DNA from: Schmidtea polychroa
Taxonomy: Eukaryota
Assembly: GCA_044892525.1 (NCBI GenBank)
Contig: CM097885.1
Coordinates: 10,790,001-10,854,000 of the forward strand
Reading direction: 5' to 3'
Length of the DNA stretch: 64,000 bases
Part shown: piece by piece, positions 6,085-46,308 of the stretch
Layout: each line of letters opens with the position of its first letter
Numbering within the stretch: position 1 is the first letter of the stretch
The notes under the pieces: model-generated
Told to the model about the DNA's origin: nothing
What the model saw: only the letters and a program-made list of their open reading frames with translations
The model's database searches: none
Position numbers and translations under genes: made by a program

Positions 6085-6133
6085 CAACGATTTAAACAAA
6101 TTAAATTATTAAGTAATCGATAATTAAAACAAA
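4993..6133 (-). repeat. Inverted repeat arm (pairs with 1-1135)
   Basis: Direct sequence comparison. Confidence 0.97.
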
Positions 6134-6139
6134 AATTAT

Positions 6140-8450
6140 TAGTTCTAAAAATATTAGGCATCGTTCTAAAAATATGATGAGTCATCGTTCTAAAAATATT
6201 AGGCATCGTTTTAAAAATATGATGTAATCATTCTAAAAATATTAGGCATCGTTCTAAAAATAAGAGGCATCGTTCTAAAAATATGATGTAATCATTCTAA
6301 AAATAAGAGGCATCGTTCTAAAAATATGATGAGTCATCGTTCTAAAAATATTAGGCATCGTTCTAAAAATATGATGTAATCATTCTAAAAATATTAGGCA
6401 TCGTTCTAAAAATAAGAGGCATCGTTCTAAAAATATGATGTAATCATTCTAAAAATATTAGGCATCATTCTAAAAATATTAGGCATCGTTCTAAAAAATA
6501 AGGTGAGTCATTGTCTTTGTTCTAAAAATGTGATGAGTCATTGTATGATAGGAATCTATAGCTCATCTTAAAGGTCTTGCATTGAGCTTTAAGATGAGGT
6601 ATCGTCCAATAAATTCAGATGATGAAAACAATAACTTTTGGGCAAACGAAAACCATGTCACCGCTAGATCACTAATAATATTTTGAAAAATAATTTAACT
6701 TTGAAAAGATGGTGGTCATCAATTGTTAATAACATTAAAACTATTAAAGATATATAAAATACCTATAGCACATCTTAAAGGTCTGGCACTGGGCTTTAAG
6801 ATGAGGTATCGTTCAATAAAATTTGTTGGCGGGAACATTAATATTTGGGAAGAAAAAAAAGTAGGTCACCGTTGGATCACTAATAATATTTTGAATAATA
6901 AGATGAGGCGTCGATTACATAATAGTTCTAAAAATATGTGGCATCGTTCTAAAAATATGAGGCACCGATTACACAATAGTTCTAAAAATATGAGGCATCG
7001 TTCTAAAAATATGACGTAATCGTTCTAAAAATATTAGGCATCGTTCTAAAAATATTAGGCATCATTCTAAAAATATTAGACATCGTTCTAAAAATATTAG
7101 GCACCATTCTAAAAGTATGACGTAATCGTTCTAAAAATATTAGGCATCGTTCTAAAAATATTAGGCATCATTCTAAAAATATTAGGCATCATTCTAAAAA
7201 TATTAGGCATCGTTCTAAAATTATGACGTAATCATTCTAAAAATAAGAGGCACCATTCTAAAAGTATGACGTAATCGTTCTAAAAATATTAGGCATCGTT
7301 CTAAAAATATTAGGCATCATTCTAAAAATATTAGGCATCGTTGGGTGAGTCATTGGGTGAGTCATTCTCTTTGTTAATATTAATGATGATGATACTTTCA
7401 ATAGCTCATTCGAAAGGTCTTGCACTAAGCTTTAAGATGAGGTATCGTTCAATAAATTCAGATGATGGAAACATTAATTTTTGGGATGAAAAAAGTAGGT
7501 CACCGCTGGACCAAATAATAATATTTTGAATAATAATAATTTAACGTTGAAAAGATGGTGGTCATCAATTGTTAATAACATTAAAACTATTAAAGATATA
7601 TAAAATACCTATAGCATATCTTAAAGGTCTGGCACTGGGCTTTAAGATGAGGTATCGTTCAATAAAATTTGTTGGCGGGAACATTACTTTTGGGAAGAAA
7701 AAAAGTAGGTCACCGCTGGATCAATTAATTTTAAAAAATTACGTAATAGTTCTAAAAATATTAGGCATCGTTCTAAAAATATTAGGCATCATTCTAAAAA
7801 TATTAGGCATCATTCTAAAAATATTAGGCATCGTTCTAAAATTATGACGTAATCATTCTAAAAATAAGAGGCACCATTCTAAAAGTATGACGTAATCGTT
7901 CTAAAAATATTAGGCATCGTTCTAAAAATATTAGGCATCATTCTAAAAATATTAGGCATCGTTGGGTGAGTCATTGGGTGAGTCATTCTCTTTGTTAATA
8001 TTAATGATGATGATACTTTCAATAGCTCATTCGAAAGGTCTTGCACTAAGCTTTAAGATGAGGTATCGTTCAATAAATTCAGATGATGGAAACATTAATT
8101 TTCGGGATGAAAAAAAGTAGGTCACCGCTGGACCAAATAATAATATTTTGAATAATAATAATTTAACGTTGAAAAGATGGTGGTCATCAATTGTTAATAA
8201 CATTAAAACTATTAAAGATATATAAAATACCTATAGCATATCTTAAAGGTCTGGCACTGGGCTTTAAGATGAGGTATCGTTCAATAAAATTTGTTGGCGG
8301 GAACATTACTTTTGGGAAGAAAAAAAGTAGGTCACCGCTGGACCAATTAATTTTAAAAAATTACGTAATAGTTCTAAAAATATTAGGCATCGTTCTAAAA
8401 ATATTAGGCATTGATTACGTAATAGTTCTAAAAATATGTGGTATCGTTCT
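6140..8450 (+). repeat. Sub-terminal minisatellite (~21-bp unit TTCTAAAAATATTAGGCATCG) interleaved with ~130-bp palindrome-containing blocks; ~620-bp higher-order duplication
   Basis: Dozens of unit copies visible; 7340-7790 is repeated at 7960-8410. Confidence 0.92.
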
Positions 8451-10394: not shown

Positions 10395-10882
10395 AGTAGT
10401 AGGATGTGTCACCACTGGCACATGTCACCTCTGACACACTACCCGGGGGGGGGTAAAATGAATTTTTTTTTTCAAGGTCAATTTTTAAACAAAGACATAT
10501 GACTCATCAAGGTCATTGAAACAAAGACCATGACTCATGCGATGACTCATCAAGGTCATTAGAACAAAGCCCATGACTCATTCAAGGTCATTGGATGACT
10601 CATCAAGGTCATTAGAACAAAGACCACGACTCATTCAAGGTCATTGGATGACTCATCAAGGTCATTGAAACAAAGACCATGACTCATTCAAGGTCATTGG
10701 ATGACTCATCAAGGTCATATTTTTAAAGGTCAAGGTCATATTTTTAAGGTCAAGGTCATATTTTCACCAAAGGGTATCATTCGAAAGGTATTTGAGAGAT
10801 AAGTATGATGGTCATACCCTCGAAGGTGAATGGTGGGTCCTCGGCCTTCAAAAGGTCAAAAACCTTCGAATTTTTTCAAACT

Positions 10883-10920
<38 letters not shown>

Positions 10921-10980
10921 TCGAAAGGTATTTGAGAGTTAAGTATGATGGTCATACCCTCGAAGGTGAATGGTGGGTCA
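10395..10980 (+). repeat. Outer left TIR, truncated after ~585 bp
   Basis: Matches the start of 13334-14180 and the reverse complement of the end at 34068. Confidence 0.92.
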
Positions 10981-13333
10981 TTGTGGTTTTCTGGCCACCT
11001 GGATGACCATTTACAAACTCTTTACAAACATTTGCTGAGTTTGTAAATGTGATTTAGAAAATAAATATAATAATTATATGTGTTCTTTTTTAATTTAATC
11101 TTGGGGGTTAAGATAACACGGAAGTACCAAAACTTTCAATGTTGTTTAGATCTTATTTGAATCCTAAAGGTTGTAACTTGTTATTATACAAACAACATTA
11201 TGTCTTGTGTAAAAATGTTAGTGTATTTTTAGGAAATAGTTTAAGCCATGATATATTTCCTTGTCTAAATTGTTTCTGTTCATTTCGTACAAACAATGCA
11301 TTAGAAACTCATCAAGTAATATGTGTACAACATAAAGAAGAAAAAGCTACTTTTCATCATGATGAATATAAATATTTCAAAGAGTATCATTACAAGAATA
11401 AAGTCCCATTTGTATGTTATGTAGATTTTGAATGTTGGAATTATAAGAGCAATACTGAAACTGGAGAAAAAACAGAACAATTCGGGTTTTGTTTTGGAAT
11501 ATATTTAAAGAGTAATTATCCAGAATTGATTGAATCAAAATATTTCAAGTATTATGGAGAGCATGCTGTTAAATAATTTGCTAAATTTATTAATAAGATG
11601 AATAAGAAATTAGGGAAAATATTAAAAACTAATTATCCAATAAATATTTCTACAGATGATGATGTTTCTATATTATATAATAGCGCATCTAGATGTTATT
11701 ATTGTAAAAAAGAATTCTCTGAAGGAGAAAATCCGAAGGTTTTGGATCATGATCATTTAAAACAAGAAAATAATTATAGAGGTGTGTAATTATTTTTCTG
11801 TGCTTTTTAGTATGTGCTGCTTTTGTGTGCAGTTTTTTATTTTTCTTCCACTTTTTAGTTTTCAATAATATAAGATGTATCTCACTGAGCTATAAATGAG
11901 AACATCAACGTGAAATTAAAGTAAGTATGTTTCTATAATGTTAAGATTATTGATTTTTTTGTTATATTATAGGAAACGGTTCTCAGTGGTGTTTGGTATA
12001 ATCATTTAATATTCAGAGAGTTGGCTCCGAAAATTAGAAAGGTTTTGACAAGTAGAAATGACAATTATATATCATTCAATGTTGGAGTTTGTAGATTTCT
12101 AGACTCGTATAGAATGATGGCTTTTGGATGAGACTATTTAGCTTCACTTTTCAAACCTGAAGAATGTAAAGTGTATAGTGAATATTATAGAAATATTCCA
12201 GTAAGAAAAGGGATATATCCTTATGAATACATTTCTGGGAAGGAGTTTAGAGATGTTGATGACAAAATGAACGAGGAAGAATAACCAAATATTAGAGAAT
12301 TCTATTCACATTTGAAACAATCTAATATTTCCACCCAAGATTATAATTATGCTCAAGGATCTTGGGAATTATTAAATTGTAGAACTATGAAAGATTACAC
12401 CATGAATTATTTAAAGATGGATGTATGTCTCTTGGTTGATGTATTATGCAATTGATCCATGTTATTGTTATTCATCTCCAGGATTGACATGGTTGGCAGG
12501 ATTGAAACATACTAAAGTAAAATTAAAATATTTTAAACATGAGACTTTTGGTCAATTATTATTTATAGGAATTGGAGTGAGAGGAGGAGCCTCTGGAGCA
12601 TATGGATCAGAGAATGAATTCAATGATGAAAAAACTAAATTCTGGAAAAATTTAGGATTACATAATTTGAATGCTGAACCAAATAATTATTTATATTATT
12701 TTGATGCAAATTCTTTCTATCCAACAGCAATGATTGAAGGGTTGCCAGCTGGAGAAATGAAATGGTGTAGAGACTTGAGTTGGCAACCTTCAGAGAATTC
12801 TGTAGAAGGGTTTATTTACAAAGTAGATTTAAAATATCCAGATAGTATAAAAGAAAAAACTAAACATTTCCAATTTTGTCCTGAGAAAATAAAAGTACCC
12901 GATCAATGGTTATCTCCTTGGGAAATTAAAAATAATTTGAATGTATACAAGACAACTGAAAAATTAATTCAAACTCAACTTGATAAAAAGAATTATGCTG
13001 TGGAAGGAAGGATGTTGGATTGGTATTTGATTAATGGAATGCTTTTGCAAAAAGTTTATTCAAAATTAATGTATAAAAAATCAAAATGGTTGAAATCTTT
13101 CGTTTTTATAGAAAATACAAAAGAAAACGCAATATCAGGCATCTAATGAGAATGATTTTTTCTTAATTTGAATTAAATCTTTCCAACTTCTTTTAAAACT
13201 TTTTGTCGAAATTCCACATCTTTTTCATTCTACCATGACTTGGATATAAGGAAGATTTTCAGTCTCAATATTGGATTTTCATTTAATTCCTAATACTTTA
13301 TTTCCTCTTCGCTTCGATATGCCAAACTGTTCT
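10979..13333 (+). repeat. Inverted duplicate of the right flank 34069-36423
   Basis: Reverse-complement match of 2355 bp including the TSD (TGTTCT at 13328-13333). Confidence 0.95.
11139..13146 (+). pseudogene. Duplicated fragment of decayed pPolB no. 2
   Basis: C2H2-like CLNC..H..C, VCYVDFE, DHDH, FLDSYRMM, RKGIYPYEY, GVRGG, YFDANSFYPTAM; stops and frameshifts. Confidence 0.9.
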
Positions 13334-15508
<2,175 letters not shown>

Positions 15509-16170
15509 AGTTGTGAATAGTAAGTACTCCAACGCACTTTCAAGGTCATGGAATATCAAGATCAAATATAGACCAATCGAATCATTTATTTTTTAAATTA
15601 ACATTTTATTTAATTACTTCTTTTTAATTTTATTAATTAATTATTTTATTATGTTTTATTTTAATTTATTACATTTAATTAATATTATTATTATTATTAT
15701 TATTATTATTTTTTTTTTAAATTAATTTATTTTTTTTTTAAATTTATTTTAATTTAATTACTTCTATTTATTTATTTATTTTTATTTTATTTATTTTTTT
15801 TCTTTTTAATTTTCTTAATTAATTATTTTATTGTTTTTATTTTACATTTACATTATATTCTAACAAGAGGTAAATTATAACAATAATATTTCAATTTGAA
15901 TAAAATTTTAATTAGTAATTATTCAATTTGAATAAAATTTTAATTAGAAATTATTTAATTTATTATAAAATAAAACCCTGAGTTAATTTTAGATAAACCG
16001 GATATTAATTTTTCGGAAAAAATAAATAAATAAATAAAATAAACACAAAAATAATATTTCTTACTTGAAACTAATTATCTAAATTAATGTGACAAATGAA
16101 TAATTAAATGATAAAACACTAAGTCAAACAATTCACAATATATATTTTATTATTCACATAAATTTAATTG

Positions 16171-19100
16171 TTAAAGTGCTTGTTTCGATTTGCATTCATT
16201 TCTAGACATAGCAGTTGCAATATGCATTTGACGAATCTTATAGTGACCGTAGGCATAACTTTCATTACAATTGTACCAATACCTTTTATCGTCCAAACAT
16301 TGGAGAGCTCGTTTTTCTGTCATGAAAGTATACAACTGATGATTGACACTTCCTATTCTTTTTTGTGGGATGCTCACTGTTCCACCATCAGTATACACTT
16401 TTTTATAGGCTTCATGTGTAAGATTAGAGTTTGTAAGTCTTATTCCTTTGGCTTTTAGAGTGTTTTTATCGCCTTGGAGTGAGTAGCACTTGGGTCGAAG
16501 AAACACCCATTCTTTATATTGATTTCCTTTATTCTCATCCTTAACTTTCCCGATTACAGAACAAATTTTATCAGAGAACAATGGATCAGTCACTGGATAA
16601 TTTGAAGTATCTAGGAGCCCATCTTCAATCATTTTTGGATATAGTTGTAAGCGTAAATCAACATTTTTACACTCTAAAAAGAAGGAATCTGTGTCACCGG
16701 CTACGATATTAATTTGACAATTGAATTCTTCTCTATAACTCTGTAGTTCTTTATATTGAAACTGATACATGCGAAGTTTAGATAAATCAAGTACGGTTTT
16801 TCCAATATACATTGGTCTATCTAAACACACCATTTCCTTATCAAGTATAACAGCAATGAGATCATCCGCAATCTTGATGCTACGACGAAACATAGGATTA
16901 CTACAATAAGTTATCAATCTTTTGCTTTTGCTGCATAATCTCAAATTTATACGTTTCTTAAGGTTTTCCACGGTTTTACCGTATAAACTATTGTTCTTTA
17001 ACTTATAATAATCTCGCTGAAATGAATCTGTACTAGCTGCTCTCATTTGAGTATTGTAATCAATATAGCCTTTGAAAATAGCCACTTGCTTGAATTCTAC
17101 AGCACGATTAACTTTTGTGACTTTTGCGCCATAACTCAACCATTCAGTCAAAACTCTACTATTAATAACATAATTGGTCTTCGATTCGTGTGTTAATAAC
17201 AGCTTTTCAACTTTACTACCAGGTGGATAACAAAGCTCAGAAGCTATAGGTAAATCATCTAGCTTATCTTGTATACTATCAGGAATGACGATGTCAACCT
17301 CTAGAACATATCCACGATCTCCATCAAACTCATCCCCATTTGCACATCTTTCAACAATACCATTCATTTCAGTCTGATCATTTATCCATCTAAATTCACC
17401 AACAGGAAGTTTTTGCGACAGCGCCCATCCATATAAATTATTAACATCTAGGTATGACATTTGTGTTGATTCATCAGCTTCAACATGATGTTTGTTGATA
17501 AATGTCATTCCACCACGAATACCAGCTTCAAATAAACGGTAAAGCTCTGGATCTTGAATAAGTTCTACCGGTTCAGGTAACTGTTTAATAGCTGATGCCC
17601 AACTTAATCCGGGTATGGAAACAAACGATAGAGCCTCAAGTCCATCTTCGTCAAATGTTTTTTCTCTGAAAGCTTCAAAAACATCGGCCAACAGAAAAAC
17701 ATCCAACTTGAGATATACGAGCATGTAATATAGCAGTGTCTCACAGTTGTATTGTCGCCAGATTTGATTTGCATGTATATAATTTTCTTGACTAACTCCC
17801 TCCCAAATCGGTGGCAATTCCGTTATTGACTGTAAAACATCCATTGACGTAGCAATATCATAAGGAAATATGCCTTTACCAGTTATTAGATGCGAATTGA
17901 AAATCTTTGAAGTAAGTGGAAGACGTGGCAAGTTTTTTGTTAAATTTGTCAAGCTGCTATTTAAAAATTGTAAAGAATCAATGAATCTAATTCTTCTGCC
18001 TTTCGATGTCGCTGTAAGTGTGAGAAACTTTTCTGTTGATTGAGGAATAACATTTAAATTCCAATCGGGGAATTTTCCAATTGCATATTTTAATATATGA
18101 TGAATGTCATATCCACGAAGATTGTGAAATACAACAGGTAAAGACGGATTGATTCTTCTAGCCAAATTACAATCTTGACACGCTGCTCCGAGATATTGAC
18201 CGGTAAAATGATCATGATCCCGAACAGGTATATTGATAATCTTTTTACAAAGGTAGCAATGAGTTTGATTCGTAAATTCTTCCTGCTGTTCCCAAGTGAG
18301 TTCCATCATTTCCTTCGATCCATTAATTTTATACCACGGATAAACTATGTCTGTAGCTATATCATCCAATGCTTGTATAAACTGAATGATACAGTTTTTC
18401 CCAACAAATGTTTCATTTCGAATCGGACAACCTTGATGAAGAAGCACAAATTCAGATGCAATCGGCTCATGTTTTTGGAAGTGCTTGTCATCTAGAGGTA
18501 ATATTGATTCAAAGTCCGCGTAGACAACAAACTGCTGTTTTATAGTTTTACTCCAGTCTTTAAATTCGATATATTTATTCTCTGGCATTGAGTATAGAGT
18601 CGTCCGCTCCACATTCTTCCTACAAAGACCTATATGTCTTTCAAAAGCAGGACGTTTTCGAAACCCATGAAGACATGTATGACACCATTGTGATTGGATT
18701 TTGACTCCTTCTACTTTATCTCTGTAATTCAGCAGTCGATCGAGATTGGTTACAGCCAAAAAATGATAATTTAATTCTAAAATTTAGTTAATATTTTTAA
18801 TGATTAAAAGAAATATTACCTTCTTCAATCAATAGGAGATATATCTGAGATCCCGTCGAAGTACTTCTATATACCAAGTCAACGAACGGATTCTTGAAAA
18901 TATCATTAGTTTTTTGTTTAATTGGATCTTTATTATATTTGAGAACATTGATCGCTAGATTTGGATTCATTGCTTCAAATTGGCAAATGTTAACCAACTT
19001 CATCGGAAACCATTCAAATTTCCATTTTAAGTCTTAAAAACAAAATTCAATGATTTATGACATTTATAAATATATATATTACCACTTAAGTTATATTTTG

Positions 19101-20157
19101 TTGTTCTTTCTCTATCCCGACGTATATCATCATAACGTAACACGGCTAGTATACTATATAAAAAACAGAATTGATCATTGTTTTGAACATTAAATAAAGC
19201 CTGACAGTTTTTCAGGTAATTTGGCGTTTTAATGTAACTTGAACCTAAGTAAATATCTTGATTTATATATATAATAATGTAAATAAACTTACCAGATACA
19301 TGTATTATGTCTGATAATTTAGTTAAAATCATAGTAACTTCTAATATTTTATGAATTCTCCACCCACTACTTTGTTGAGTGTATTTCTCCAACTTTTCTT
19401 TTAATTTTTCAATTCCATCATTAATAAATGAAGATGACATTGTAATTGCTTTATTCGACAAACACCATTTTTTAATTTCACCATCCTCTTTGATAAACTC
19501 TGCACAAAGTCCAAATTGGATTTTTACTGTCCCCATTCGTTGAATATGATCTTCTATTTCTTTGATGAGACAATCTGGAACAACAATGTCAGGAGAATTA
19601 ATTGCAGATACATCGCTTGTCAATTCAACACGAGAACCATTTAAGTCAGACTCCCGACGTGGACACAATTGTATGTTAGAGTGTCCATTTCCGTAAAATA
19701 TTGACTTTCGTTTTGTGGTGCCAGAGTTTTGTCTAACTATATTTATAATTAATATTAAACAACTTAAATAACATAACTTGTAACATATTCTTTAATCTGC
19801 TTAGGATCGTATGATGTGTTCATTTTCGATTGTACTATAAAAAAAATTAATAATTGTTAATAGTAGAAAGAGTATTACTTTTAGTGATCATCCTGCTCTT
19901 CGTTTCTTCGAATCTTCTAAGATGGTGTCCGTGTTGTCGTACAAACATTAACCACCTACCTGGTGATATAATGAGACATTCCTGACATATGTAACCCGAT
20001 AAGGTAGAGTCATTTATCTTGAAATATGATGATGTAACTGATTTACAGTTCTCCACATCTTCATGACTTTCGGCCATACAAAATTTATATAAACTGCATC
20101 CGTTCACTAAAAGAAAATAATCATAAATATTAGATAGAGAATAAAAAATTATTCACT
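16171..20157 (-). CDS. polB: Spliced protein-primed family B DNA polymerase (Polinton type), ~1236 aa. Exons: 20157, 20106-19879, 19834-19778, 19736-19293, 19244-19083, 19032-18820, 18776-16171
   Basis: Motifs SSGW, GSSYIKTP, CFLYSILA, ExoI YADFES, EndoVII-like DHDH..G.Y.GAACQDCNL, ExoII HNLRGYD, FIDS, KGIFPY, ExoIII YLKLDV, GIRGG, DVNNLYG, KLKNNSLYGK, GDTDS, PKCY, KAKG. GT-AG introns of 43, 50, 48, 41, 44 and 50 nt restore one 3711-nt frame. The 5'-most exons are less certain. Confidence 0.9.
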
Positions 20158-20659
20158 TATATAAGTTAAATTAAAAGTTTAAATGACAAACATTTGAAAA
20201 GTTACTGCTTATATATTACACATGATTATATTCTGGTCAATCAAAATCAAGGAAGGGGTAGGAAAAATAAATGCATTACGTTGCAGTATTTTAAAAGTTC
20301 AATATATTTTAAAACACATTTTGATGCTAAAGTTGACTTATTTAACATTTTCATAATAATTTAATAAAAAATAATGTGATGAACCCACAAAGTAATATCA
20401 TTTTTCATCAAATTGCAAAACAGTAATAACGTTTTCATAAAATTGTAACAAAGTAATAACATATTTCAGATAAATTTTCAACAGTTGTAAAATATTTAAG
20501 CAAATTGTAACAAGATTAGAAAATATTACAACAAAGTAGTAACATATTTCAGAAAATTTCAACAAAGTTGTAAAATATTTATCAAATTGTAACTAAAATA
20601 ATAAAAATATTGCAACAAAGTAATAAAATAATGATGTTAATTGGGACAAATCAATACAT

Positions 20660-22780
20660 TATTGTTAATTTTATCTCTGTGTTATTAAAATTATCTTTCG
20701 ATTTTACGCTGCTTACCATTTTAGAATAAGATTTTTTATCAAAATTTGTGATAATTTACTGATTCAATTTGATGGAGTTATTGTTAATTCGTTTTATTAT
20801 ATATACTCTGAGTTTATCCGACAAGATATTTTGACCCCCTAAGGGTACTATTCGTAAGGGTACTGGTCGTAAGGTACTGGTCGTAAGGGTACTGGTATGT
20901 TTTAATGATTTTATTTAGGCAAATCTTTGGTTATTATTTGGCACTAAATTCATTGGTAATTTTTTAGAGTTGATGTTAGTGGGATTTAGTAAATATTCAA
21001 GTGAATTACTATAATTTTGTGAATTTCATGTTAATTGAAAGAATATTTAAGAATTTAAGGTTTTATTGTTAATTCTAAGACAAATTTAATTAATTTCTTG
21101 ATAATTTGCTATATTTTATTGACTTGTTTTTAAATAAAAATTATTTTTTATGACAGTTAGGTTAATAATTAGAGCTTTTACAATAATCAAGTGATAGGAT
21201 AAATAATTTTTTCATATATTTTCTAAGAATATTTCCATTTACGCATTGATGAACTTTTAAATATTGAAAATCTAAGTTGAAACCAGCTAATTTTATCACG
21301 AATTTTATTTGAAATCTACTTGAAAATTATTGTAAATTATACTGAAATTTGTGATTTAGTTTGGAAGATAATAATTGGCTGAATCGATGAAGAATTATGA
21401 TCAATCAATGAGAAATTATCATCCCTAGTTAGATATTTGATGGTAAATGTGGTGAAATATTTGTAGAAAATATTGATTTTAGTGAATTTTGATCTTTTAG
21501 TGGGCTCTTACTACATGAATTTAGCTACTAAATTATTTCAATGGAAAAAATGTTTGGTATCTGTAACAATTAAATAAAATTCATATTTTGAAGAATTTTC
21601 TATGGATTTTAAAAGAATTGATATATTAAAGGGCTCAAGTGGCTGAACTTAATGGATATAGTCGGTTGGATTTAGTGATGGTTTGGTTAAGATGGGAATA
21701 TATGATTTTTATGGAATATATTCGGTTGGATGTTTAAAGGGGTAGAAATATTTGGTGAGGGATCGGTTAAGGTGGAAATGTTTTGAATATCTCTATTTAA
21801 TTCGACAATTTTCTTAATGGTAAAATATCAATGTTTCAAGAGAAATAGTCAGTATTTAGCTATGAGTCAATAATAGTTCCTGTGAAATTATATCGTTTTA
21901 GGTTTATTAGGTTGTAATGAATGTAATTGCACAGTAATTTAGATTTATGTTTTACTTTAGAACCAGTTTTTATTAATTATCCACGGTTTTATTAAGTCGT
22001 TTAGGGTTAATGGTCAATTAGGTGTTTATTTACTTGGTTTTGACAATGAAATATCTGAAATCTTTAGAATTAATTGGGAATGATATCAAAGATTATTGCT
22101 TTAAATTATTTACCTTTATTTAACATGTTATAGACGGATATTCATTGTGGAGATATCGGTGACAAAACTTGAGAAATATTGACTTAAAAGAGTTGGACAT
22201 CGACAGCAACTAAAGAAAATTGAACATTATTGAAGGAAATTTATGATTTTAATTAGAAATTAAATCGGTTGAATATCAGTTAAGGGTAAAATATGGTCAT
22301 TTGAAGGAATATTGTTATCGAGTGGATAAATCTTTCAATGATATTTTGCTAAATTACCTTTTGCTAAATATTATTTTAAATGACAAAGTTAACCAATAAA
22401 TTAGTCGATCGAAATAAGAATTCAGTAAAAGTTACATTTAAAATATTCCAATTATTCACGAATTTCTGATAAAGATATATTTGAGCATCTATTTTTCACT
22501 AAATTACCTAGGAATTTCTAACTGATATACATGTACCTTAATTTACTAATTAATATTCCCTTGCGACATGTTGAATGTGAGTAGTACCCTTACGACTAAT
22601 ACCCATAGGGGGACAGAATATTTTGTCGGATAAATTCAGACTATATATTTAAAAATTTACAATATGCTATGGTTTTTATTGATTAATTTGTTGTATATTG
22701 CATTGATACATCAAAATGTCAGATAATATTTATAAATTAACTTAAAAAAAATACACAAAAATACACAAAATACTATATTA
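20660..22780 (+). repeat. Non-coding unit U, copy 2
   Basis: Colinear with 1150-3260; M motifs at 20799(+) and 22647(-). Confidence 0.9.
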
Positions 22781-32255: not shown

Positions 32256-32322
<67 letters not shown>

Positions 32323-32965
32323 TTGATTAAAACTTCGAAAATAATAATTTTAAAAATAACATCTTCCGCGCGGGCGTTAATATCTTTCCCAATAATAATG
32401 ATAAATTAAATTATTACGTAATCAACAATTAAAACAAAAAAATATTATATAATCAACGATTTAAACAAAATTAAATTTTTATGTATTCGATAATTAAAAC
32501 AAAAAATTAAAATATTATTATATAATAAACAATTTAAACAAAATTAAATTATTTCGTATTCGATAATTAAAACAAAAAATAAAAATATTATTACATAATC
32601 AACAATTTAAACAAAATTAAATTATTATGTATTCGATAATTAAAACAAAAAATAAAAATATTATTATATAATTAACAATTTAAACAAAATTAAATTATAA
32701 CGTTATCGATAATTAAAACAAATATAAACCGCTGGAACAAAAATAGATGTCTTTGTTACTAAAAATAGAACGACCTTGGCGAGTCATCGGATCAATAATC
32801 GGATAAAAAATGTTACTAAAAATAGATGTCTTTGTTACTAAAAATAGAACGACCTTGATGATTCAGCGACTGAGGTATGGTCTTTGTTTAAATTACCTTG
32901 GTAATTAAAACTTGATGATAATAATAATAATAATATTAATAATAAATTTTGAAAATATCTTCGAA

Positions 32966-33019
<54 letters not shown>

Positions 33020-34068
33020 TATACTATTGATAGTAATAAATAATATATCCCATGGGCGCGTCATTGTCTTTGTTCAAAAATAAATGAGTCATCGATGAGT
33101 ACTTTTGTATTGCCGTTTGTTTGATATGTATATTATAAGGTTTGAAAAATTTAAACCTTGGATCCTTAGACTCTTTGACTTTCAAACTTGGATCATGATA
33201 CTTACATCTCAAATACCTTTTGTTTGATATGTATATTATAAGGTTTTAAAATTTTTGAACATTGGACACTTTCGGTGGTATAACCTTTGAGGGTATGACC
33301 ATCATACTCACCTTTGTATTACCTTTTATTTGACATGTATATATCTATATGTATAATTTTTAAAGGTTTTGGACCCTTTGAAGGTTTGAAGGTTCAGGAC
33401 CATTCATAAACCTTTGAAAGTATGACCATGATACTTAGATCTCAAATACCTTTTGTTTGATATGTATATTATAAGGTTTTAAAATTTTTGAACCTTGAAC
33501 CCTTGGACCTTCGAACTCACCATCAAAAGTCCTTTTGAAAGATATATATATATATTATATGATTTGAAAAATATTTAATTTTGGATACCCTTTGAAGGTT
33601 ATTGACCCACCATTCACCTTCGAGGGTATGACCATCATACTTACCTCTCAAATACCTTTCGAATGATACCCTTTGGTGAAGGTCTGACCTTAAAAATATG
33701 ACCTTGACCTTAAAAAATATGACCTTTACCTTAAAATATGACCTTGACCTTTAAAAATATGACCTTGATGAGTCATCCAATGACCTTGAATGAGTCATTG
33801 TCTTTGTTTCAATGACCTTGATGAGTCATCCAATGACCTTGAATGAGTCATGGTCTTTGTTTCAATGACCTTGATGATTCATCCAATGACCTTGAATGAG
33901 TCATGGGCTTTGTTCTAATGACCTTGATGAGTCATCGCATGAGCCATGGTCTTTGTTTCAATGACCTTGATGAGCCATATGTCTTGTTTTAAAATTTGAC
34001 CTTGAAAAAAATTTCATTTTACCCCCCCCCCGGGGGGTAGTGTGCCAGTGGTGACACATCCTACTACT
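32245..34068 (-). repeat. Right TIR of the main Polinton
   Basis: Reverse complement of 13334-15508, with an internal deletion between direct repeats. Confidence 0.93.
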
Positions 34069-34255
34069 AGAACAGTTTGGCATATCGAAGCGAAGAGGAA
34101 ATAAAGTATTAGGAATTAAATGAAAATCCAATATTGAGACTGAAAATCTTCCTTATATCCAAGTCATGGTAGAATGAAAAAGATGTGGAATTTCGACAAA
34201 AAGTTTTAAAAGAAGTTGGAAAGATTTAATTCAAATTAAGAAAAAATCATTCTCA

Positions 34256-37200
34256 TTAGATGCCTGATATTGCGTTTTCTTTTGTATTTTCTATAAAAAC
34301 GAAAGATTTCAACCATTTTGATTTTTTATACATTAATTTTGAATAAACTTTTTGCAAAAGCATTCCATTAATCAAATACCAATCCAACATCCTTCCTTCC
34401 ACAGCATAATTCTTTTTATCAAGTTGAGTTTGAATTAATTTTTCAGTTGTCTTGTATCCATTCAAATTATTTTTAATTTCCCAAGGAGATAACCATTGAT
34501 CGGGTACTTTTATTTTCTCAGGACAAAATTGGAAATGTTTAGTTTTTTCTTTTATACTATCTGGATATTTTAAATCTACTTTGTAAATAAACCCTTCTAC
34601 AGAATTCTCTGAAGGTTGCCAACTCAAGTCTCTACACCATTTCATTTCTCCAGCTGGCAACCCTTCAATCATTGCTGTTGGATAGAAAGAATTTGCATCA
34701 AAATAATATAAATAATTATTTGGTTCAGCATTCAAATTATGTAATCCTAAATTTTTCCAGAATTTAGTTTTTTCATCATTGAATTCATTCTCTAATCCAT
34801 ATGCTCCAGAGGCTCCTCCTCTCACTCCAATTCCTATAAATAATAATTGACCAAAAGTCTCATGTTTAAAATATTTTAATTTTACTTTAGTATGTTTCAA
34901 TCCTGCCAACCATGTCAATCCTGGAGATGAATAACAATAACATGGATCAATTGCATAATACATCAACCAAGAGACATACATCCATCTTTAAATAATTCAT
35001 GGTGTAATCTTTCATAGTTCTACAATTTAATAATTCCCAAGATCCTTGAGCATAATTATAATCTTGGGTGGAAATATTAGATTGTTTCAAATGTGAATAG
35101 AATTCTCTAATATTTGGTAATTCTTCCTCGTTCATTTTGTCATCAACATCTCTAAACTCCTTCCCAGAAATGTATTCATAAGGATATATCCCTTTTCTTA
35201 CTGGAATATTTCTATAATATTCACTATACACTTTACATTCTTCAGGTTTGAAAAGTGAAGCTAAATAGTCTCATCCAAAAGCCATCATTCTATACGAGTC
35301 TAGAAATCTACAAACTCCAACATTGAATGATATATAATTGTCATTTCTACTTGTCAAAACCTTTCTAATTTTCGGAGCCAACTCTCTGAATATTAAATGA
35401 TTATACCAAACACCACTGAGAACCGTTTCCTATAATATAACAAAAAAATCAATAATCTTAACATTATAGAAACATACTTACTTTAATTTCACGTTGATGT
35501 TCTCATTTATAGCTCAGTGAGATACATCTTATATTATTGAAAACTAAAAAGTGGAAGAAAAATAAAAAACTGCACACAAAAGAAGCACATACTAAAAAGC
35601 ACAGAAAAATAATTACACACCTCTATAATTATTTTCTTGTTTTAAATGATCATGATCCAAAACCTTCGGATTTTCTCCTTCAGAGAATTCTTTTTTACAA
35701 TAATAACATCTAGATGCGCCATTATATAATATAGAAACATCATCATCTGTAGAAATATTTATTGGATAATTAGTTTTTAATATTTTCCCTAATTTCTTAT
35801 TCATCTTATTAATAAATTTAGCAAATTATTTAACAGCATGCTCTCCATAATACTTGAAATATTTTGATTCAATCAATTCTGGATAATTACTCTTTAAATA
35901 TATTCCAAAACAAAACCCGAATTGTTCTGTTTTTTCTCCAGTTTCAGTATTGCTCTTATAATTCCAACATTCAAAATCTGCATAACATACAAATGGGACT
36001 TTATTCTTGTAATGATACTCTTTGAAATATTTATATTCATCATGATGAAAAGTAGCTTTTTCTTCTTTATGTTGTACACATATTACTTGATGAGTTTCTA
36101 ATGCATTGTTTGAACGAAATGAACAGAAACAATTTAGACAAGGAAATATATCATGGCTTGAACTATTTCCTAAAAATACACTAACACTTTTACACAAGAC
36201 ATAATGTTGTTTGTATAATAACAAGTTACAACCTTTAGGATTCAAATAAGATCTAAACAACATTGAAAGATTTGGTACTTCCGTGTTATCTTAACCCCCA
36301 AGATTAAATTAAAAAAGAACACATATAATTATTATATTTATTTTCTAAATCACATTTACAAACTCAGCAAATGTTTGTAAAGAGTTTGTAAATGGTCATC
36401 CAGGTGGCCAGAAAATCACAATGTCGTTGAGAATAGTGTCGAACACATCGGCACTGTTGCTTAGAACACGCTTGCGCCACATAAACTCACATAATCACAT
36501 AAATCACATAAATCACAGATCGCTTAAATTCATGGTAAATAATGTTCAATAACGTCATCAATAATTTATTCTCTCATTTTTTATACTGGTATTTTAATTG
36601 TATTTTATAATTTAATTTTTGGGGGTAAGATAACACGGAAGTTCCAAAGCTTTTTCTCATCATTTATTTTAAATACACTGATTAAAATTTCAAGATTTTG
36701 TTTTTGGAATTTCTTTATCCCATCAATTGTAATTGGAAAATCTATCCCATTTAAATTCAATTCATTTTCAAAAGGTTTAAATTTTCCAACTCTATATGAA
36801 TGTTCAGTTGTAGAGATTGGATGTAAAAATGCTAAAATACTCCAAACAAAACATTTGTTGCCATCATTTTGAATATTTAAAATGACATTTGATTTAAATC
36901 GAAGTTTTACAAATGTTCCCCCTATTGGTGATTTGTATTGGTTAATATTCAAAGATATTTGTTTATTATATTAAAATGACCAACCACTTCCAGTAAGTTC
37001 TTCACTTTCAATTCTCCACTCTAATTCTCTGACTTGTTCATCTATTCCTTCTTGTATTTTTTCAGTATTTATAGCAAAAGATGTTGTAGATGTATAAAAT
37101 CTTTGTAAATCATTAGGATCATAATCATAGTCTCGTCTTCTTCTTCTTATTCTCTGCATTCTTCTTCTTTGCATTCTTTGAACATAATTTAAATGCGCAT

Positions 37201-41164: not shown

Positions 41165-42890
41165 CACTCAATGGAATGTGTTGAAGCAATTTCTGTTTGC
41201 TGTAATGTTAAGGGCCACTCCGCACTTCTCACACAGTATACTCGATTTCACAATTTATTTTGGACAGTGTCTTATTCCGTACTTTCTAACATCTTTAGGC
41301 AGAACATGTTGAACATGTCTCCTTTTCTTTTAAATAATTTTATTTTCAATAAGAGATGGATGCACACGTTTCCCTGCCTTCTTTTAGAAGTTACAGAATG
41401 CATCTGCCAGCTCAGTTTTGATTCTGCTAATGTCAATAATTTTTTTCTTGGGTTGGCTTTTTTATAGAGAACCCAGGAATTTATTATTGTCATGTCCAGT
41501 AAATAATAAAATAACCTCAGATACCATTTTTGGCTATTTACCCTTATTTTGTATTGTTCTATGAGATCTACACGACCCATGTGTGCATTGAATTCCTTTA
41601 CAATGTTGAGACACTCAATTTTGATTTTCTTCTTCAGTGTTCTGTCGTACCTGTTTATGCTATCCACACATGTAGACGCCAAAGTTACGATCTTGTTGTC
41701 TTTCCATGTAGGGACAGAAATGTCTACACCTTCATAATCGGTACATTGCTCTTCAAATGTACCTCTTGCAACATTTGTCCTCATCATTTCTGCCTTGGTA
41801 GATAAATTACACTCTTTACCGAGCCTGTTTTTTGTACTGTGCCTAAGCAAAAGATCCCCTTAGAAGCCAAGTAGTGCATCAATGAAATGGATGTATAAAG
41901 GTTATCAAAATACACTATGTGGTTCACCTGTCTAGGAACAACATTAGTCAAACGAACTGCCGTATTTCTTATAACTCCTAAATCAGGCTCATTAGATGAA
42001 TTACATGGATTTTCTTTCCCAAAATAAATTTCGAAATTGTAACCATAACACAGCAAAGAACATAAAACATAAAGCTTGAACCCCCATTTCTGAGGCTTGG
42101 TAGGCAAATATTGATTCTTGAAATGGGAAATCTTTGTGGCACACATTTGTTCATTTACAGAGAGCCTTTTGTCCAGAGGAACTTGCGAAAATGTTTTATT
42201 TAGATGAGATACTATAGGTCTTATTTTAGATAGCCTGTCGTGTTCTGCATATCCAATCAGTTTGTTGTTCAGATTATTGTTGAAATGTATAACACTCCTC
42301 AGTTTCTCGAATCTGTTCAGTGGCATTGTTTTTATTATTGTTGCGAAACCAAACCTAGGACACCAATAAGATCGTACATTTGGATAATGGTATACTGACA
42401 TAAATGTAAGAATACAAAAAAACAGCCTCAATTCAACAATATCCACAGGATTACAGTGTCCCACTACACTTTGCACGATATATAAATTGGTCTCTTCGAC
42501 AATATTTTGTAAAAAAGATTCGTCAAAGAAATAAGAAAACAAATTGAACAGCGTTTTTAATTCCAAAATGTTATTAGGAAACGTCATATTCCCATGAAAT
42601 GAAGTCTCATTCTCAGTGAGGACCAAATTTTATTTCCTCCATACTGTCTCTTGTCCTTTATACGCCCTGGTGCATTAACTATGAGAGGTGGATCATCATT
42701 TTGTTCATCTTCCTCAACAGGCTCAACTATCTCAACTTTGATATTCAACTTCAACATCAAGTTCGCACTCTTTCAAGAAGTCATCCAATATTTCTTCATC
42801 TTCAGACTTTATATCATTATCAGAAAGTCCCTCGTCTAATCTCCGAAATTATTCTTCGATTTCTTATGAATTTAGAGATGGTTTCCTTTT
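41165..42890 (-). pseudogene. piggyBac transposase remnant
   Basis: MPLNRFEKLRSVIHF, DRLSKIRP, LSVNEQM (catalytic D to N), QYLPTKPQKWGFK, YFDNLYTS, WKDNKIV, FNAHMGRVD, KWY.RLFYYLLD, Cys-rich tail; frameshift near 41800. Confidence 0.93.
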
Positions 42891-44868: not shown

Positions 44869-45200
44869 TTGAAATTACAACGTAGTATACCATATTTCAA
44901 TGCTTTGATTAAAGTACAACTCATGAAAAGAACAAGTATTTTACAGTCATTCCCACAATTTGTTGTGGACAATTTGCTTGAAATTATTGTTAATGTTGTG
45001 CGTGGCTATGTTGATATTAGTAAAGCGAAAAAACTTGTATTGCAAAACCATAAACAATCACTTTTATCGTTAGTAAATACAAACAATAAACGGATAATGC
45101 GAAAAATTATATACAAACAGCGAGGGGGATTTATATCAACTTTGATAACAATCGCATTATCTTTATTAGATGGACTGGGATACAGTTTAAACAAACCAAT
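44869..45200 (+). pseudogene. Polinton small basic virion-type protein with a QxGG|F cleavage-like site and hydrophobic tail
   Basis: LLEIIVNVVRG...KRIMRKIIYKQRGGFISTLITIALSLL resembles Maverick small proteins and adenain-type GG|X sites. Confidence 0.65.
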
Positions 45201-45419: not shown

Positions 45420-45495
<76 letters not shown>

Positions 45496-45543
45496 TTCAA
45501 AGACAAGTTCAAAATTTTATTATTATTATCATTATTATTATTA

Positions 45544-46259: not shown

Positions 46260-46308
<49 letters not shown>

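What the first reader, a model, noticed from the sequence alone, without database searches (positions are those of the whole stretch)
16171..20157. Intact Polinton DNA polymerase split by six host-sized, all phase-1 mini-introns
Seen: four apparently broken ORFs join into one 3711-nt frame after removing GT-AG introns at 18777-18819 (43 nt), 19033-19082 (50), 19245-19292 (48), 19737-19777 (41), 19835-19878 (44) and 20107-20156 (50). Splicing restores VSG|SSYIKTP, NLS|DLKWKFEWFPMKL and EE|ELNYHFLAVTNLDRLL. The 5'-most intron would create the start codon itself (A|TG). All introns lie in the N-terminal region that precedes the exonuclease domain; the catalytic core is one exon. Intron sizes match the host TRAF, ETS and Ly6 introns (42-58 nt), and the neighbouring pPolB no. 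2 has none at these positions. Knowledge: Polinton pPolB genes are usually described as single ORFs. Inference: a lineage that gained spliceosomal introns, with symmetric exons that allow in-frame skipping and splicing-gated expression. ORF-based screens would call it a pseudogene.
Basis: partly seen in the sequence, partly recalled or inferred. Interest (0 to 1): 0.88.

Follow-up and report, generated by a model that had tools for sequence, protein, structure and literature searches.

The report
Maverick polymerase gene with six mini-introns
A virus-like jumping gene present in hundreds of copies in this animal genome keeps a working-looking DNA polymerase gene that only reads through once six tiny host-style introns are removed, although such elements are usually assumed to have no introns.

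Summary
On the minus strand, six GT..AG segments (50, 44, 41, 48, 50 and 43 nt, all phase 1) join four ORFs into one 3711-nt frame.

Four junctions are backed by uninterrupted relatives, which align across them without a gap. This includes the A|TG start, which gives M-N-G-C like the relatives' N-termini.

Among 20 genomic copies, GT is kept 120/120 and AG 119/120. Seven of 8 indel events fall in the 276 intron bases. Shared variants in exons 2-6 give pN/pS 0.08, against 2.13 and 1.20 in shifted frames.

A contig from another species has introns at the positions and phase of introns 4 and 6.

RNA evidence is thin: one contig end matches the spliced intron-6 junction, and other contigs are unspliced. 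Introns 2 and 3 and the 57-nt exon 3 rest on frame logic only.

The gene is a Polinton/Maverick-type polymerase, but it does not sit in a full Polinton. It is the only gene of a 6.6-kb unit, usually a 13-kb palindromic pair, with AGTAGT..ACTACT ends and 6-bp target duplications, in at least about 480 copies. The window's copy lacks its 5' end.

Intron gain, exon skipping and splicing-gated expression are not shown.

The parts
20157..20215 (-). Putative promoter-proximal region and 5' UTR exon. It ends with the A (20157) of the split start codon. TATATAAG lies at 20215-20208. The transcription start is not mapped.
   Evidence: Sequence read. Of the 70 bases 20157-20226, only 1 site varies among 20 copies. 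All 11 full copies examined read M at the split codon.
20107..20156 (-). Intron 1, 50 nt, GTGAAT..TTTTAG, phase 1, inside the start codon (A|TG).
   Evidence: The donor is kept in 20/20 copies and the AG in 20/20; one copy has 53 nt. The spliced start M-N-G-C matches the relatives' N-termini MNTCKF and MNYLCKNF. An X1 contig crosses it unspliced.
19879..20106 (-). Exon 2, 228 nt. It encodes an N-terminal Cys/His-rich module (C-x5-C-x4-H-x5-C .. CxxC .. HxHH). An alternative in-frame ATG lies at 20077-20075.
   Evidence: tblastn with P0002 and P0010 matches 20107-19856 (E 1.5e-6 and 6.8e-5).
19835..19878 (-). Intron 2, 44 nt here (42 nt in 17 and 41 nt in 2 of 20 copies), GTAATA..TTATAG, phase 1.
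   Evidence: It lies in a variable linker, so homology cannot test it. Contigs of X2 and X3 cross it unspliced.
19778..19834 (-). Exon 3, 57 nt, a linker micro-exon. This is the least certain part: a single 142-nt intron 19878..19737 is also in frame.
   Evidence: It carries only 3 variants among 20 copies, which is uninformative.
19737..19777 (-). Intron 3, 41 nt, GTTATG..ATATAG, phase 1.
   Evidence: Length and splice sites are invariant in 20 copies. Contigs of X1, X2 and X3 cross it unspliced.
19293..19736 (-). Exon 4, 444 nt. It encodes a basic linker plus the first conserved N-terminal domain, the position of the terminal-protein domain in published Polinton polymerases.
   Evidence: In the model of the matching part of a relative, residues 12-123 resemble the little-finger domain of Y-family polymerases (Z 8.3). 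Shared variants are 5 synonymous to 1 non-synonymous.
19245..19292 (-). Intron 4, 48 nt, GTAAGT..ACTTAG, phase 1, in frame and stop-free. It sits in the Gly codon of ..HVS-G-SSYI.., at the boundary of the OTU-like domain.
   Evidence: Relatives have no 16-residue insert here (P0003 reads IIHVSGSSYI). Contig L052 from another species has an intron at the same codon and phase. An exact 25-mer over the donor occurs at 481 places in the genome.
19083..19244 (-). Exon 5, 162 nt. It encodes the start of the OTU-like cysteine protease domain, with the invariant Cys (..DQFCFLYSILA..).
   Evidence: Shared variants are 9 synonymous to 2 non-synonymous.
19033..19082 (-). Intron 5, 50 nt (48 or 51 in 3 of 20 copies), GTAATA..TTTAAG, phase 1.
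   Evidence: The junction KYNLS-D-LKWKFEWFPMKL is collinear with P0002 KYNLSDLEFDPAWFPIKV. The intron is absent from L052. One copy has a mutated acceptor.
18820..19032 (-). Exon 6, 213 nt, the middle of the OTU-like domain.
   Evidence: Of 150 scored genomic places, 135 are 100% identical in protein, and nearly all sit in a 78-codon open frame.
18777..18819 (-). Intron 6, 43 nt (42 in 7 of 20 copies), GTAATA..TTTTAG, phase 1, just before the invariant His of the OTU-like domain.
   Evidence: The junction is collinear with relatives. L052 has an intron at the same place and phase. An X1 contig end reads exactly the spliced junction (15 of 15 letters). The genome holds 0 copies of an intron-less junction against 329 of the exon6/intron6 donor 25-mer.
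16171..18776 (-). Exon 7, 2606 nt. It encodes the His motif of the OTU-like domain, a C2HC zinc finger, an Endonuclease VII/HNH-like insert, and the exonuclease and polymerase domains (..GDTDSFF..), and ends at stop TAA 16171-16173.
   Evidence: Pfam DNA_pol_B_2 at 6.3e-30 and Endonuclease_7 at 3.2e-4, the latter below its cut-off here but above it in relatives. There are 2882 homologues at E<=1e-10 among 8000 scored.
15505..16170 (-). 3' untranslated region and terminal inverted repeat of the element: A+T-rich repeats, then ..TTCCATGACCTTGAAAGTGCG... The very end is diverged in this copy.
   Evidence: Other copies end ..CTTACTACATACTACT, followed by unrelated flanks.
20216..20663 (-). Upstream non-coding region with about 30-nt and 83-nt repeats and a 45-bp duplication private to this copy. 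Homology of this copy to other copies stops at 20663, while the others continue upstream.
   Evidence: The other copies go on into 144-bp tandem arrays and a 5' inverted repeat or a second, divergent gene.

Best explanation
Window 16171-20157 (minus strand) is a protein-coding, recently active copy of a Polinton/Maverick-type protein-primed DNA polymerase gene. Its domain order is an N-terminal zinc module, a terminal-protein-position domain, an OTU-like cysteine protease, a zinc finger, an HNH-like insert, then the exonuclease and polymerase domains.

The reading frame is interrupted by ordinary U2-type spliceosomal mini-introns of the host's size class. The host spliceosome must remove them from a nuclear transcript before a 1236-residue protein can be made. 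The first intron splits the start codon.

Shown:
- the exon-intron arithmetic;
- collinearity of four junctions with uninterrupted relatives;
- purifying selection on the small exons in exactly these frames;
- tolerance of frame-breaking indels in the introns but not in the exons;
- conservation of two intron positions in another species;
- one RNA-type contig end with the spliced intron-6 junction.

Inferred:
- splicing of the other five introns;
- the reality of the 57-nt exon 3;
- use of the split ATG.

The gene is the only gene of a non-autonomous Maverick derivative. The unit is a 6.6-kb monomer or, more often, a 13-kb palindromic pair of divergent genes, with about 0.5-kb or gene-long inverted repeats, AGTAGT..ACTACT ends and a 6-bp target duplication. 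It is present in at least about 480 copies. It presumably replicates with its own polymerase and is integrated by an integrase supplied in trans. That last sentence is inference.
For: Anatomy: six of six segments are GT..AG, phase 1, 41-50 nt, and the exons total 3711 nt.

Homology: the big exon hits DNA_pol_B_2 at 6.3e-30 and has 2882 homologues, most 1150-1300 aa in one ORF. tblastn of about 40 of these changes frame exactly at introns 5 and 6. In an alignment of 20 relatives with the exons as separate rows, the junctions 4|5, 5|6 and 6|7 are gap-free and exon 2 aligns to the relatives' N-termini.

Copies, 20 compared:
- donors are kept 120/120 and acceptors 119/120;
- 7 of 8 indel events lie in 276 intron nt against 1 in 2679 exon nt;
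- pN/pS of shared variants is 0.22 overall (53N:63S) and 0.08 for exons 2-6 (7N:21S), against 2.13 and 1.20 in the shifted frames;
- all 11 full-length copies compared have exactly 3711 exon nt, and 8 of 11 are open from the split ATG to the stop.

Other species: L052 (54-56% identical) has GT-AG mini-introns at the codon and phase of introns 4 and 6. Its best DNA match in this genome is only 65-83% over short stretches. L057 has four mini-introns in its linker.

RNA: an X1 contig end reads 18776 joined to 18820 over 15 of 15 letters. The intron-less junction occurs 0 times in the genome, against 329 exon6/intron6 donor 25-mers.

Host introns of 46-50 nt are seen in the TRAF-like gene.

Element: 3 of 3 insertions examined have 6-bp target duplications (CAAGGC, ACCTTA, CCTGAT) and AGTAGT..ACTACT ends. 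This is the end motif reported for vertebrate Mavericks (PMC8097293, passages). More distant relatives sit beside rve integrase, A32-type ATPase and capsid genes.
Against: - No joint at any of the six sites was listed in the four runs laid.
- Contigs of X1, X2 and X3 cross introns 1, 2, 3 and part of 4 unspliced. These runs are labelled RNA only by guess and may be DNA.
- The spliced intron-6 reading rests on one contig with a 13-letter loose end.
- Introns 2 and 3 and exon 3 lie in a linker that does not align to relatives. Alternative in-frame GT-AG paths exist.
- Substitution density is the same in introns and exons (0.087 against 0.085 variable sites), so raw density gives no sign of exon constraint. 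Only the synonymous/non-synonymous split does.
- An internal ATG at 20077 could serve as the start without intron 1.
- This window's copy lacks the 5' part of the element, so this particular copy may not be mobile.
Confidence: 0.8

Rival explanations
1. The overall picture holds but some details are wrong. Only four or five of the six introns are real: exon 3 is skipped, or introns 2 and 3 plus exon 3 form one 142-nt intron. Alternatively or in addition, translation starts at the internal ATG (20077) and intron 1 is a 5' UTR intron or is not spliced.
For: The linker does not align to relatives. A single in-frame intron 19878..19737 and other paths exist. Exon 3 carries only 3 variants. An in-frame ATG lies in exon 2. 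Contigs cross introns 1-3 unspliced.
Against: The donors and acceptors of introns 1-3 are invariant in 20 of 20 copies. Intron 2 tolerates 41, 42 or 44 nt. The host-size class is 41-50 nt rather than 142. The split start reproduces the relatives' M-N-x-C start and keeps the first two Cys of a conserved motif. Relatives L052 and L057 also have micro-exons between mini-introns in this linker.
Confidence: 0.15
2. The gene is a dead pseudogene. On this reading the six segments are junk insertions or frameshifts, and GT..AG ends are easy to find in A+T-rich DNA.
For: Several in-frame GT-AG pairs exist by chance at each junction. No spliced joints were listed. No long protein in the database covers exon 4 (235 candidates, none scored).
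Against: pN/pS is 0.08 in exons 2-6 only in the proposed frames. There is no frameshifting indel in 11 x 3711 exon nt, while intron lengths vary. Junctions are exactly collinear with relatives. The same two positions are interrupted in another species. Hundreds of near-identical copies carry target duplications.
Confidence: 0.03
3. The frame changes are bridged without splicing, by ribosomal frameshifting, by read-through, or by separate translation of the pieces as independent proteins.
For: Intron 4 is in frame and stop-free, so it could be read through. The TP/OTU part and the polymerase part are thought to be separated by proteolysis in relatives anyway (PMC11161782, abstract and passages).
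Against: Introns 1, 2, 3, 5 and 6 carry stops in the incoming frame and would need five separate recoding events. The 78-codon exon 6 ORF and the exon 7 ORF have no start codon at their heads. The segments carry canonical splice signals that are conserved in all copies.
Confidence: 0.02

Closest known systems
Polinton/Maverick elements of animals (also described as adintoviruses), including their 'Alpha' OTU-pfam03175 PolB
   Same: The polymerase is the same family (PF03175) with an OTU-like N-terminal part (PMC8502044 and PMC11161782 passages). The element has inverted terminal repeats, a 5'-(AGT)2..(ACT)2-3' end motif and 6-bp target duplications (PMC8097293 passages). More distant relatives lie next to rve integrase, A32 ATPase and capsid genes.
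   Different: The unit has no integrase, capsid, ATPase or protease gene. The polymerase is its only gene, usually present twice in a palindrome. The gene carries spliceosomal introns, whereas intact vertebrate Mavericks are reported to be intronless (PMC8097293 passages) and endogenous PLV/virophage screens assume no introns (PMC10120064 passage).
Nematode/oomycete Polinton pPolB2 with an HNH endonuclease insert (Jeong et al. 2023, PMC10748475, passages read)
   Same: A His-Me/HNH-type motif sits in the polymerase ahead of the exonuclease domain. Pfam Endonuclease_7 scores 21 bits here and 24-32 bits in relatives.
   Different: I did not test whether this gene belongs to their pPolB1 or pPolB2 class. 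That paper treats the HNH domain as special to the oomycete and nematode group and reports no spliceosomal introns in the passages I read.
Introner-bearing eupolintoviral proviruses of dinoflagellates (PMC12166617, abstract and passages)
   Same: These are Polinton-like integrated elements that carry sequences able to act as spliceosomal introns.
   Different: Those introns are copies of recognisable transposon families (introners) in protists. Here the six introns show no clear likeness to each other (pairwise scores 3-17 against shuffled mean 2.3, sd 3.4, max 14). They are 41-50 nt, lie in an animal, and two of them are positionally conserved between species.
Intron-containing genes of other eukaryotic transposons and nuclear DNA viruses (P element, many hAT and Mutator transposases, Penelope, adenovirus transcripts). 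This comparison is recalled and comes from no call.
   Same: Mobile or viral genes transcribed in the nucleus and dependent on host splicing.
   Different: These are different element classes. For Polinton polymerases I found no report of introns in searches.

Membership tests
Polinton/Maverick self-synthesizing element | [quoted passage not shown] | tested here: met
   DNA_pol_B_2 at 6.3e-30 on the big exon, with the GDTDSFF motif. Relatives at 25-36% identity lie in 13-19 kb contigs with Polinton/PLV hallmark genes.
Polinton/Maverick self-synthesizing element | Retrovirus-like (rve) integrase encoded in the same element | tested here: not met
   The 6.6-kb and 13-kb units hold no ORF of 70 or more codons outside the polymerase, apart from 76-110-codon frames in A+T-rich repeats. 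In the window, the only rve-like remnant lies 27 kb away at 47114-47819. The unit is therefore a non-autonomous derivative, not a full member.
Polinton/Maverick self-synthesizing element | Terminal inverted repeats, 5'-(AGT)2..(ACT)2-3' ends and 6-bp target site duplication | tested here: met
   Three of 3 insertions examined (two dimers, one monomer) have AGTAGT..ACTACT ends and perfect 6-bp duplications. The motif is as quoted in PMC8097293 (passages). The window's own copy has only the 3' end, and that end is diverged.
Polinton/Maverick self-synthesizing element | Capsid (double jelly-roll major and minor), packaging ATPase and maturation protease genes | tested here: not met
   None is present in the unit. 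tblastn with neighbours of 21 related contigs found nothing next to this gene.
TP-vOTU-pPolB architecture of Polinton polymerases (PMC11161782) | OTU-fold cysteine protease domain with catalytic Cys and His ahead of the polymerase | tested here: met
   The test used the matching part of relative L050 (AlphaFold model, pLDDT 84.7). Residues 133-267 match about 20 OTU entries among the 50 listed, with Z 5-7. Cys154 and His257 are invariant in 27 sequences. The window has the same motifs in exons 5 and 7. Z values are middling, and Foldseek alone gave no hit at E<=0.001.
TP-vOTU-pPolB architecture of Polinton polymerases (PMC11161782) | N-terminal terminal-protein (TP) domain | tested here: inconclusive
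   The domain encoded by exon 4 is in the right place, but its best fold matches are little-finger domains of Y-family polymerases (Z 8.3, rmsd 2.5, 92 aligned). No TP structure appeared among the rows.
U2-type spliceosomal introns | GT..AG boundaries kept under selection | tested here: met
   Six of 6 in the window. In 20 copies, GT is kept 120/120 and AG 119/120.
U2-type spliceosomal introns | Removal restores a frame collinear with uninterrupted homologues | tested here: met
   Met for introns 1, 4, 5 and 6. Not testable for introns 2 and 3, which lie in a variable linker.
U2-type spliceosomal introns | Introns behave as non-coding sequence while exons behave as coding sequence | tested here: met
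   Seven of 8 indels fall in introns. All 11 full copies have exactly 3711 exon nt. Exons 2-6 give pN/pS 0.08, against 2.13 and 1.20 in the shifted frames.
U2-type spliceosomal introns | Spliced RNA observed | tested here: inconclusive
   One X1 contig end equals the intron-6 junction, and the genome holds 0 copies of that junction. No joint was listed for any site. Unspliced contigs are present. The nature of the runs is guessed.
Introners (transposon-derived intron families) | Introns are copies of one repeated sequence family | tested here: not met
   Pairwise global scores among the six introns are 3-17, against shuffled mean 2.3, sd 3.4, max 14. The likeness is limited to the splice-site ends. 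I did not search the genome for intron-like repeats.

The most novel reading that the evidence does not exclude
A flatworm-like host carries a lineage of Maverick/Polinton derivatives stripped down to the polymerase gene alone, amplified to hundreds of palindromic copies and still under purifying selection. Its polymerase gene has become a host-style split gene.

Every mini-intron seen in this clade is phase 1: 6 here, 4 in L052 and 4 in L057. Two positions are shared between species whose nearest relatives are intronless.

This would point to a specific, recurrent intron-generating or intron-erasing process tied to the element's own replication, such as site-directed insertion or cDNA-mediated loss, rather than to ordinary slow intron drift. 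It could also mean that splicing serves the element as a passport against host silencing of intronless foreign transcripts.
Probability: 0.15. Interest if true: 0.85.

Novelty: new variant of a known kind. Interest (0 to 1): 0.64.

Why it matters
Polintons/Mavericks are treated as virus-like elements with intronless genes. Surveys call their genes with prokaryotic gene finders or score any interruption as decay (passages of PMC10120064 and PMC8097293). A selected, high-copy polymerase gene that needs six splicing events shows that such screens can misfile active lineages as fossils, at least in hosts with tiny introns.

It also gives a tractable case of intron turnover in a virus-derived gene. 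The copies are dated, two positions are conserved across species, the intron phase is uniform, and intronless sister lineages are available for comparison.

Finally, a polymerase-only palindromic element with Maverick ends raises a question: why is a non-autonomous element selected to keep the replicase but not the integrase?

Tried and rejected
RNA evidence:
- The look-up of sequencing runs listed no holder on record as RNA.
- Read laying on X1, X2, X3 and X7 listed no joint at the six sites.

Database searches:
- A protein search with exon 4 among longer proteins found nothing (235 candidates, none scored). No database protein from a spliced transcript of this family turned up, which is weak evidence either way.
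- Earlier-findings look-ups by place and by sequence returned nothing.
- The Atlas look-up of the N-terminal part gave only unnamed eukaryotic clusters.
- Pfam found nothing in exons 2-6, nor in the N-terminal 400 residues of five relatives.
- Foldseek against the PDB gave no hit at E<=0.001.

Other attempts:
- Kapitonov and Jurka 2006 (PMC1450207) is not held. What I say about it comes from the passages of PMC8097293 that cite it.
- L123, at first taken for a second family, is just another copy at 96% identity. L121 and L122 are decayed other families and were uninformative.

Rejected ideas:
- Group I or II self-splicing introns: 41-50 nt is far too short (from general knowledge).
- An introner family.
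- That L052 comes from this same genome.
- That the 5.1-kb stretch shared with the window is the whole element. The other copies continue upstream.


Full report
**The observation.** The gene lies on the minus strand. Stop-to-stop ORFs at 19847-20152, 19027-19791, 18797-19033 and 16171-18783 are the four broken pieces. All six proposed segments begin GT and end AG and measure 50, 44, 41, 48, 50 and 43 nt. They are 84-88% A+T and each interrupts a codon after its first base. The exons add up to 3711 nt, ending at TAA 16171-16173, with no stop inside any exon.

An in-frame ATG also exists inside exon 2 (20077-20075), so the split A|TG is not the only conceivable start. In this A+T-rich DNA, chance offers 3-16 other in-frame GT-AG pairs per junction. 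The arithmetic alone therefore proves little, and the weight lies on the comparisons below.

**Identity of the gene.** The large exon matches Pfam DNA_pol_B_2 (6.3e-30) and, weakly, Endonuclease_7. It has 2882 database homologues at E<=1e-10 among 8000 scored. The best are 60-62% identical and typically 1150-1300 residues long in a single ORF.

More distant relatives (25-36% identical) sit in 13-19 kb viral or metagenome contigs beside rve integrases, A32-type packaging ATPases and, in one case, a virophage-type major capsid protein. The polymerase therefore belongs to the Polinton/Maverick and polinton-like virus family.

I modelled the matching N-terminal part of relative L050 (pLDDT 84.7). 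It shows two domains:
- residues 12-123 resemble the little-finger domain of Y-family polymerases (Z 8.3);
- residues 133-267 have an OTU fold (about 20 of the 50 listed rows, Z 5-7), with Cys154 and His257 invariant in 27 sequences.

This fits the published terminal-protein/vOTU/polymerase layout of Polinton polymerases (PMC11161782, abstract and passages) and the 'Alpha' OTU-pfam03175 PolB of adintoviruses (PMC8502044, passages). In the window, exon 4 encodes the first domain, exons 5, 6 and the head of exon 7 encode the OTU-like domain, and exon 7 encodes everything else.

**Are the introns real? Homology.** tblastn with about 40 full-length relatives changes frame exactly at 19083/19033 and 18821/18771. 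I aligned 20 relatives with the window's exons added as separate rows. The junctions are gap-free:
- IIHVS-G-SSYI matches P0003 IIHVSGSSYI;
- KYNLS-D-LKWKFEWFPMKL matches P0002 KYNLSDLEFDPAWFPIKV;
- LLLIEE-E-LNYHFLAV matches P0002 LLLLEESDKFHYVAV.

The 16 codons of the stop-free intron 4 have no counterpart in any relative. Exon 2 aligns with the very N-termini of relatives (MNTCKFF.., MNYLCKNFKTFC..). The split start codon therefore gives M-N-G-C-S-L-Y-K-F-C and keeps the first two cysteines of a conserved Cys/His motif, whereas the internal ATG would remove them. Introns 2 and 3 and the 57-nt exon 3 lie in a linker that varies in all relatives, so homology cannot test them.

**Are the introns real? 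Copies in the genome.** The stretch is repeated at 97-100% identity: 40 scored of 1057 candidates. Exact 25-mers over the exon 4/intron 4 and exon 6/intron 6 donors occur at 481 and 329 places, with 0 for the reversed controls.

In an alignment of 20 copies (19 distinct):
- GT is kept in 120 of 120 and AG in 119 of 120 sites;
- 7 of 8 indel events lie in the 276 intron bases, against 1 in 2679 exon bases;
- intron lengths vary (intron 2 is 44, 42 or 41 nt; intron 5 is 50, 48 or 51; intron 6 is 43 or 42; intron 1 is 50 or 53).

Read in the spliced frame, variants shared by two or more copies give pN/pS 0.22 (53 non-synonymous to 63 synonymous) and singletons give 0.65. For exons 2-6 alone, shared variants are 7 to 21, or pN/pS 0.08, against 2.13 and 1.20 when the frame is shifted by one or two bases.

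I compared eleven full-length copies: the window's plus 10 of the 12 fetched, two being dropped as truncated. All have exactly 3711 exon bases, and 8 of 11 are open from the split ATG to the stop.

Against this, the raw density of variable sites is the same in introns and exons (0.087 and 0.085). The introns change more slowly than synonymous sites. That may reflect the high share of signal positions in such short introns, or their extreme base composition. I did not test either explanation.

**Are the introns real? Another species.** Metagenome contig L052 (3472 nt, 32% G+C, 54-56% identical in protein) is interrupted by GT-AG mini-introns at two matching places:
- in the same Gly codon as intron 4 (..IIHRS-G-SSYIKSP);
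- in the second codon after the conserved LL[IL]E motif, as intron 6 is.

Both are in phase 1. L052 has none at the site of intron 5. Its best DNA match in this genome is only 65-83% over short coding stretches, so it comes from another organism. Contig L057 has four mini-introns of 46-50 nt separated by three 66-nt exons in its linker. Contigs L050, L051 and L056 are uninterrupted.

**RNA.** No listed run is on record as RNA. In three runs guessed to be RNA, contigs cross introns 1, 2, 3 and part of 4 unspliced, and no joint at the six sites was listed. One X1 contig ends at 18778 and runs on with 13 letters that equal 18822-18834. Allowing for the two ambiguous letters, this is exactly 18776 joined to 18820, the predicted intron-6 junction. 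The genome holds no copy of such a junction (0 matches) against 329 of the intron-bearing form. This is direct but thin support for one intron. Unspliced cover is expected in any case for a repeat of several hundred copies.

**The element.** The window's copy shares 20663 down to about 15505 with other copies. The others continue upstream with common sequence: about 200-bp and 144-bp tandem arrays, and then either an inverted copy of the 3' end or a whole second gene in divergent orientation.

Three insertions could be delimited, all with AGTAGT..ACTACT ends:
- a dimer of 13,229 bp flanked by CAAGGC;
- a dimer of 13,413 bp flanked by ACCTTA;
- a monomer of 6,643 bp flanked by CCTGAT.

This is the end motif and 6-bp duplication described for vertebrate Mavericks (PMC8097293, passages). 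The two arms of a dimer are 99.85% and 99.88% alike, against a mean of 97.9% between copies. Of the first 100 places listed, 58 form minus/plus pairs 1-7 kb apart. No other ORF of note lies in the unit.

The thing is therefore a non-autonomous Maverick derivative that keeps only the polymerase. The window's copy is a 5'-truncated half with a diverged 3' tip. Elsewhere the window holds:
- a distant second polymerase in a large inverted repeat;
- scraps of another Polinton with an rve-like remnant at 47114-47819.

**Gain or loss.** A quick maximum-likelihood tree of the large exon (48 rows, SH-aLRT support; the careful search did not finish) gives these groupings:
- the window groups with intronless P0001/P0002 (support 96);
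- L052 groups with intronless P0029 (support 99).

N-terminal identities show no special kinship of the window and L052 either. The two shared positions therefore need either three or four clean losses or parallel gains at identical sites. 'A lineage that gained introns' is not established.

All mini-introns seen in the clade are phase 1:
- six in the window;
- four in L052, of which the two linker introns I read by eye from the print;
- four in L057, inferred from its symmetric 66-nt exons and the ORF frame.

The first intron of the host's TRAF-like gene is phase 0, so this is not a host-wide rule. I have no mechanism for it. The six introns are not recognisably copies of one another.

**Literature.** In four searches I found no report of spliceosomal introns in a Polinton polymerase of an animal. 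What I read:
- passages of PMC8097293 state that intact vertebrate Mavericks are intronless, in agreement with Kapitonov and Jurka 2006;
- a passage of PMC10120064 states that endogenous viruses contain no introns, as the reason for using a prokaryotic gene finder;
- PMC12166617 (abstract and passages) reports introner transposons inside polinton-like proviruses of dinoflagellates;
- PMC10748475 (passages) reports an HNH insert in nematode and oomycete pPolB2.

Kapitonov and Jurka 2006 and Pritham et al. 2007 were not available to me, and an older note on introns there cannot be excluded.

**Verdict.** The reading 'intact Polinton polymerase with six host-sized phase-1 mini-introns' is well supported for four introns, plausible for two, and directly seen in RNA-type data for one. 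The reading 'Polinton' needs the qualifier that this is a polymerase-only derivative. The claims of gain, exon skipping and splicing-gated expression are open.

Noticed in passing
G000:C1:261743548-261756776 (L023/L024) and G000:C3:7726296-7739708 (L025/L026); monomer G000:C2:130131151-130137793 (L029): The polymerase-only element usually occurs as a 13-kb palindrome of two divergent genes. The arms are 99.85-99.88% alike, and there is one 6-bp target duplication per palindrome. The monomer keeps only about 0.5 kb of the partner as its 5' inverted repeat. How the palindromes arise is open.
   Followed up: partly
window introns 18777-20156; L052:180-1176; L057:80-469: Every mini-intron seen in this polymerase clade is phase 1 (6 + 4 + 4). 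The host's TRAF-like gene has a phase-0 intron, so this is not a host-wide rule. I have no explanation.
   Followed up: partly
window 10466-15502 and 32269-36423: A large inverted repeat (96-99% alike) flanks the studied gene. Each arm holds a distant, probably decayed second protein-primed polymerase (11127-13137 on plus, 37120-34265 on minus), and the two point towards each other.
   Followed up: partly
window 44551-48034 (+) and 45552-45753: Degraded pieces of another Polinton: an rve-integrase-like stretch at 47114-47819, matches to two unnamed neighbour proteins of related contigs, and a small palindromic scrap of a polymerase C-terminus.
   Followed up: no
window 41275-42629 (-): A piggyBac-type transposase (DDE_Tnp_1_7, 2.1e-53 and 2e-11) split over two overlapping ORFs. 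This is either a frameshift or an intron.
   Followed up: no
window 53179-54711 (+): A host TRAF-like gene (RING, zf-TRAF, coiled coil, MATH) in four exons, separated by GT-AG mini-introns of about 46-50 nt. I used it as the host yardstick.
   Followed up: partly
window 20157-20226: The 70 bases upstream of the split start codon have 1 variable site among 20 copies, against about 8.5% of sites elsewhere. A TATATAAG lies at 20215-20208. This is probably the promoter and 5' UTR under constraint.
   Followed up: no
window 18270-18160 (big exon residues 168-205) and relatives: An Endonuclease VII/HNH-like Cys/His motif (..CYLC..RDHDHFTG..C..CN..) is inserted ahead of the exonuclease domain across this whole clade. 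It resembles the HNH insert reported for nematode and oomycete pPolB2.
   Followed up: partly
window 6105-8032: Arrays of a 21-22-nt tandem repeat in three blocks about 600-850 bp apart.
   Followed up: no
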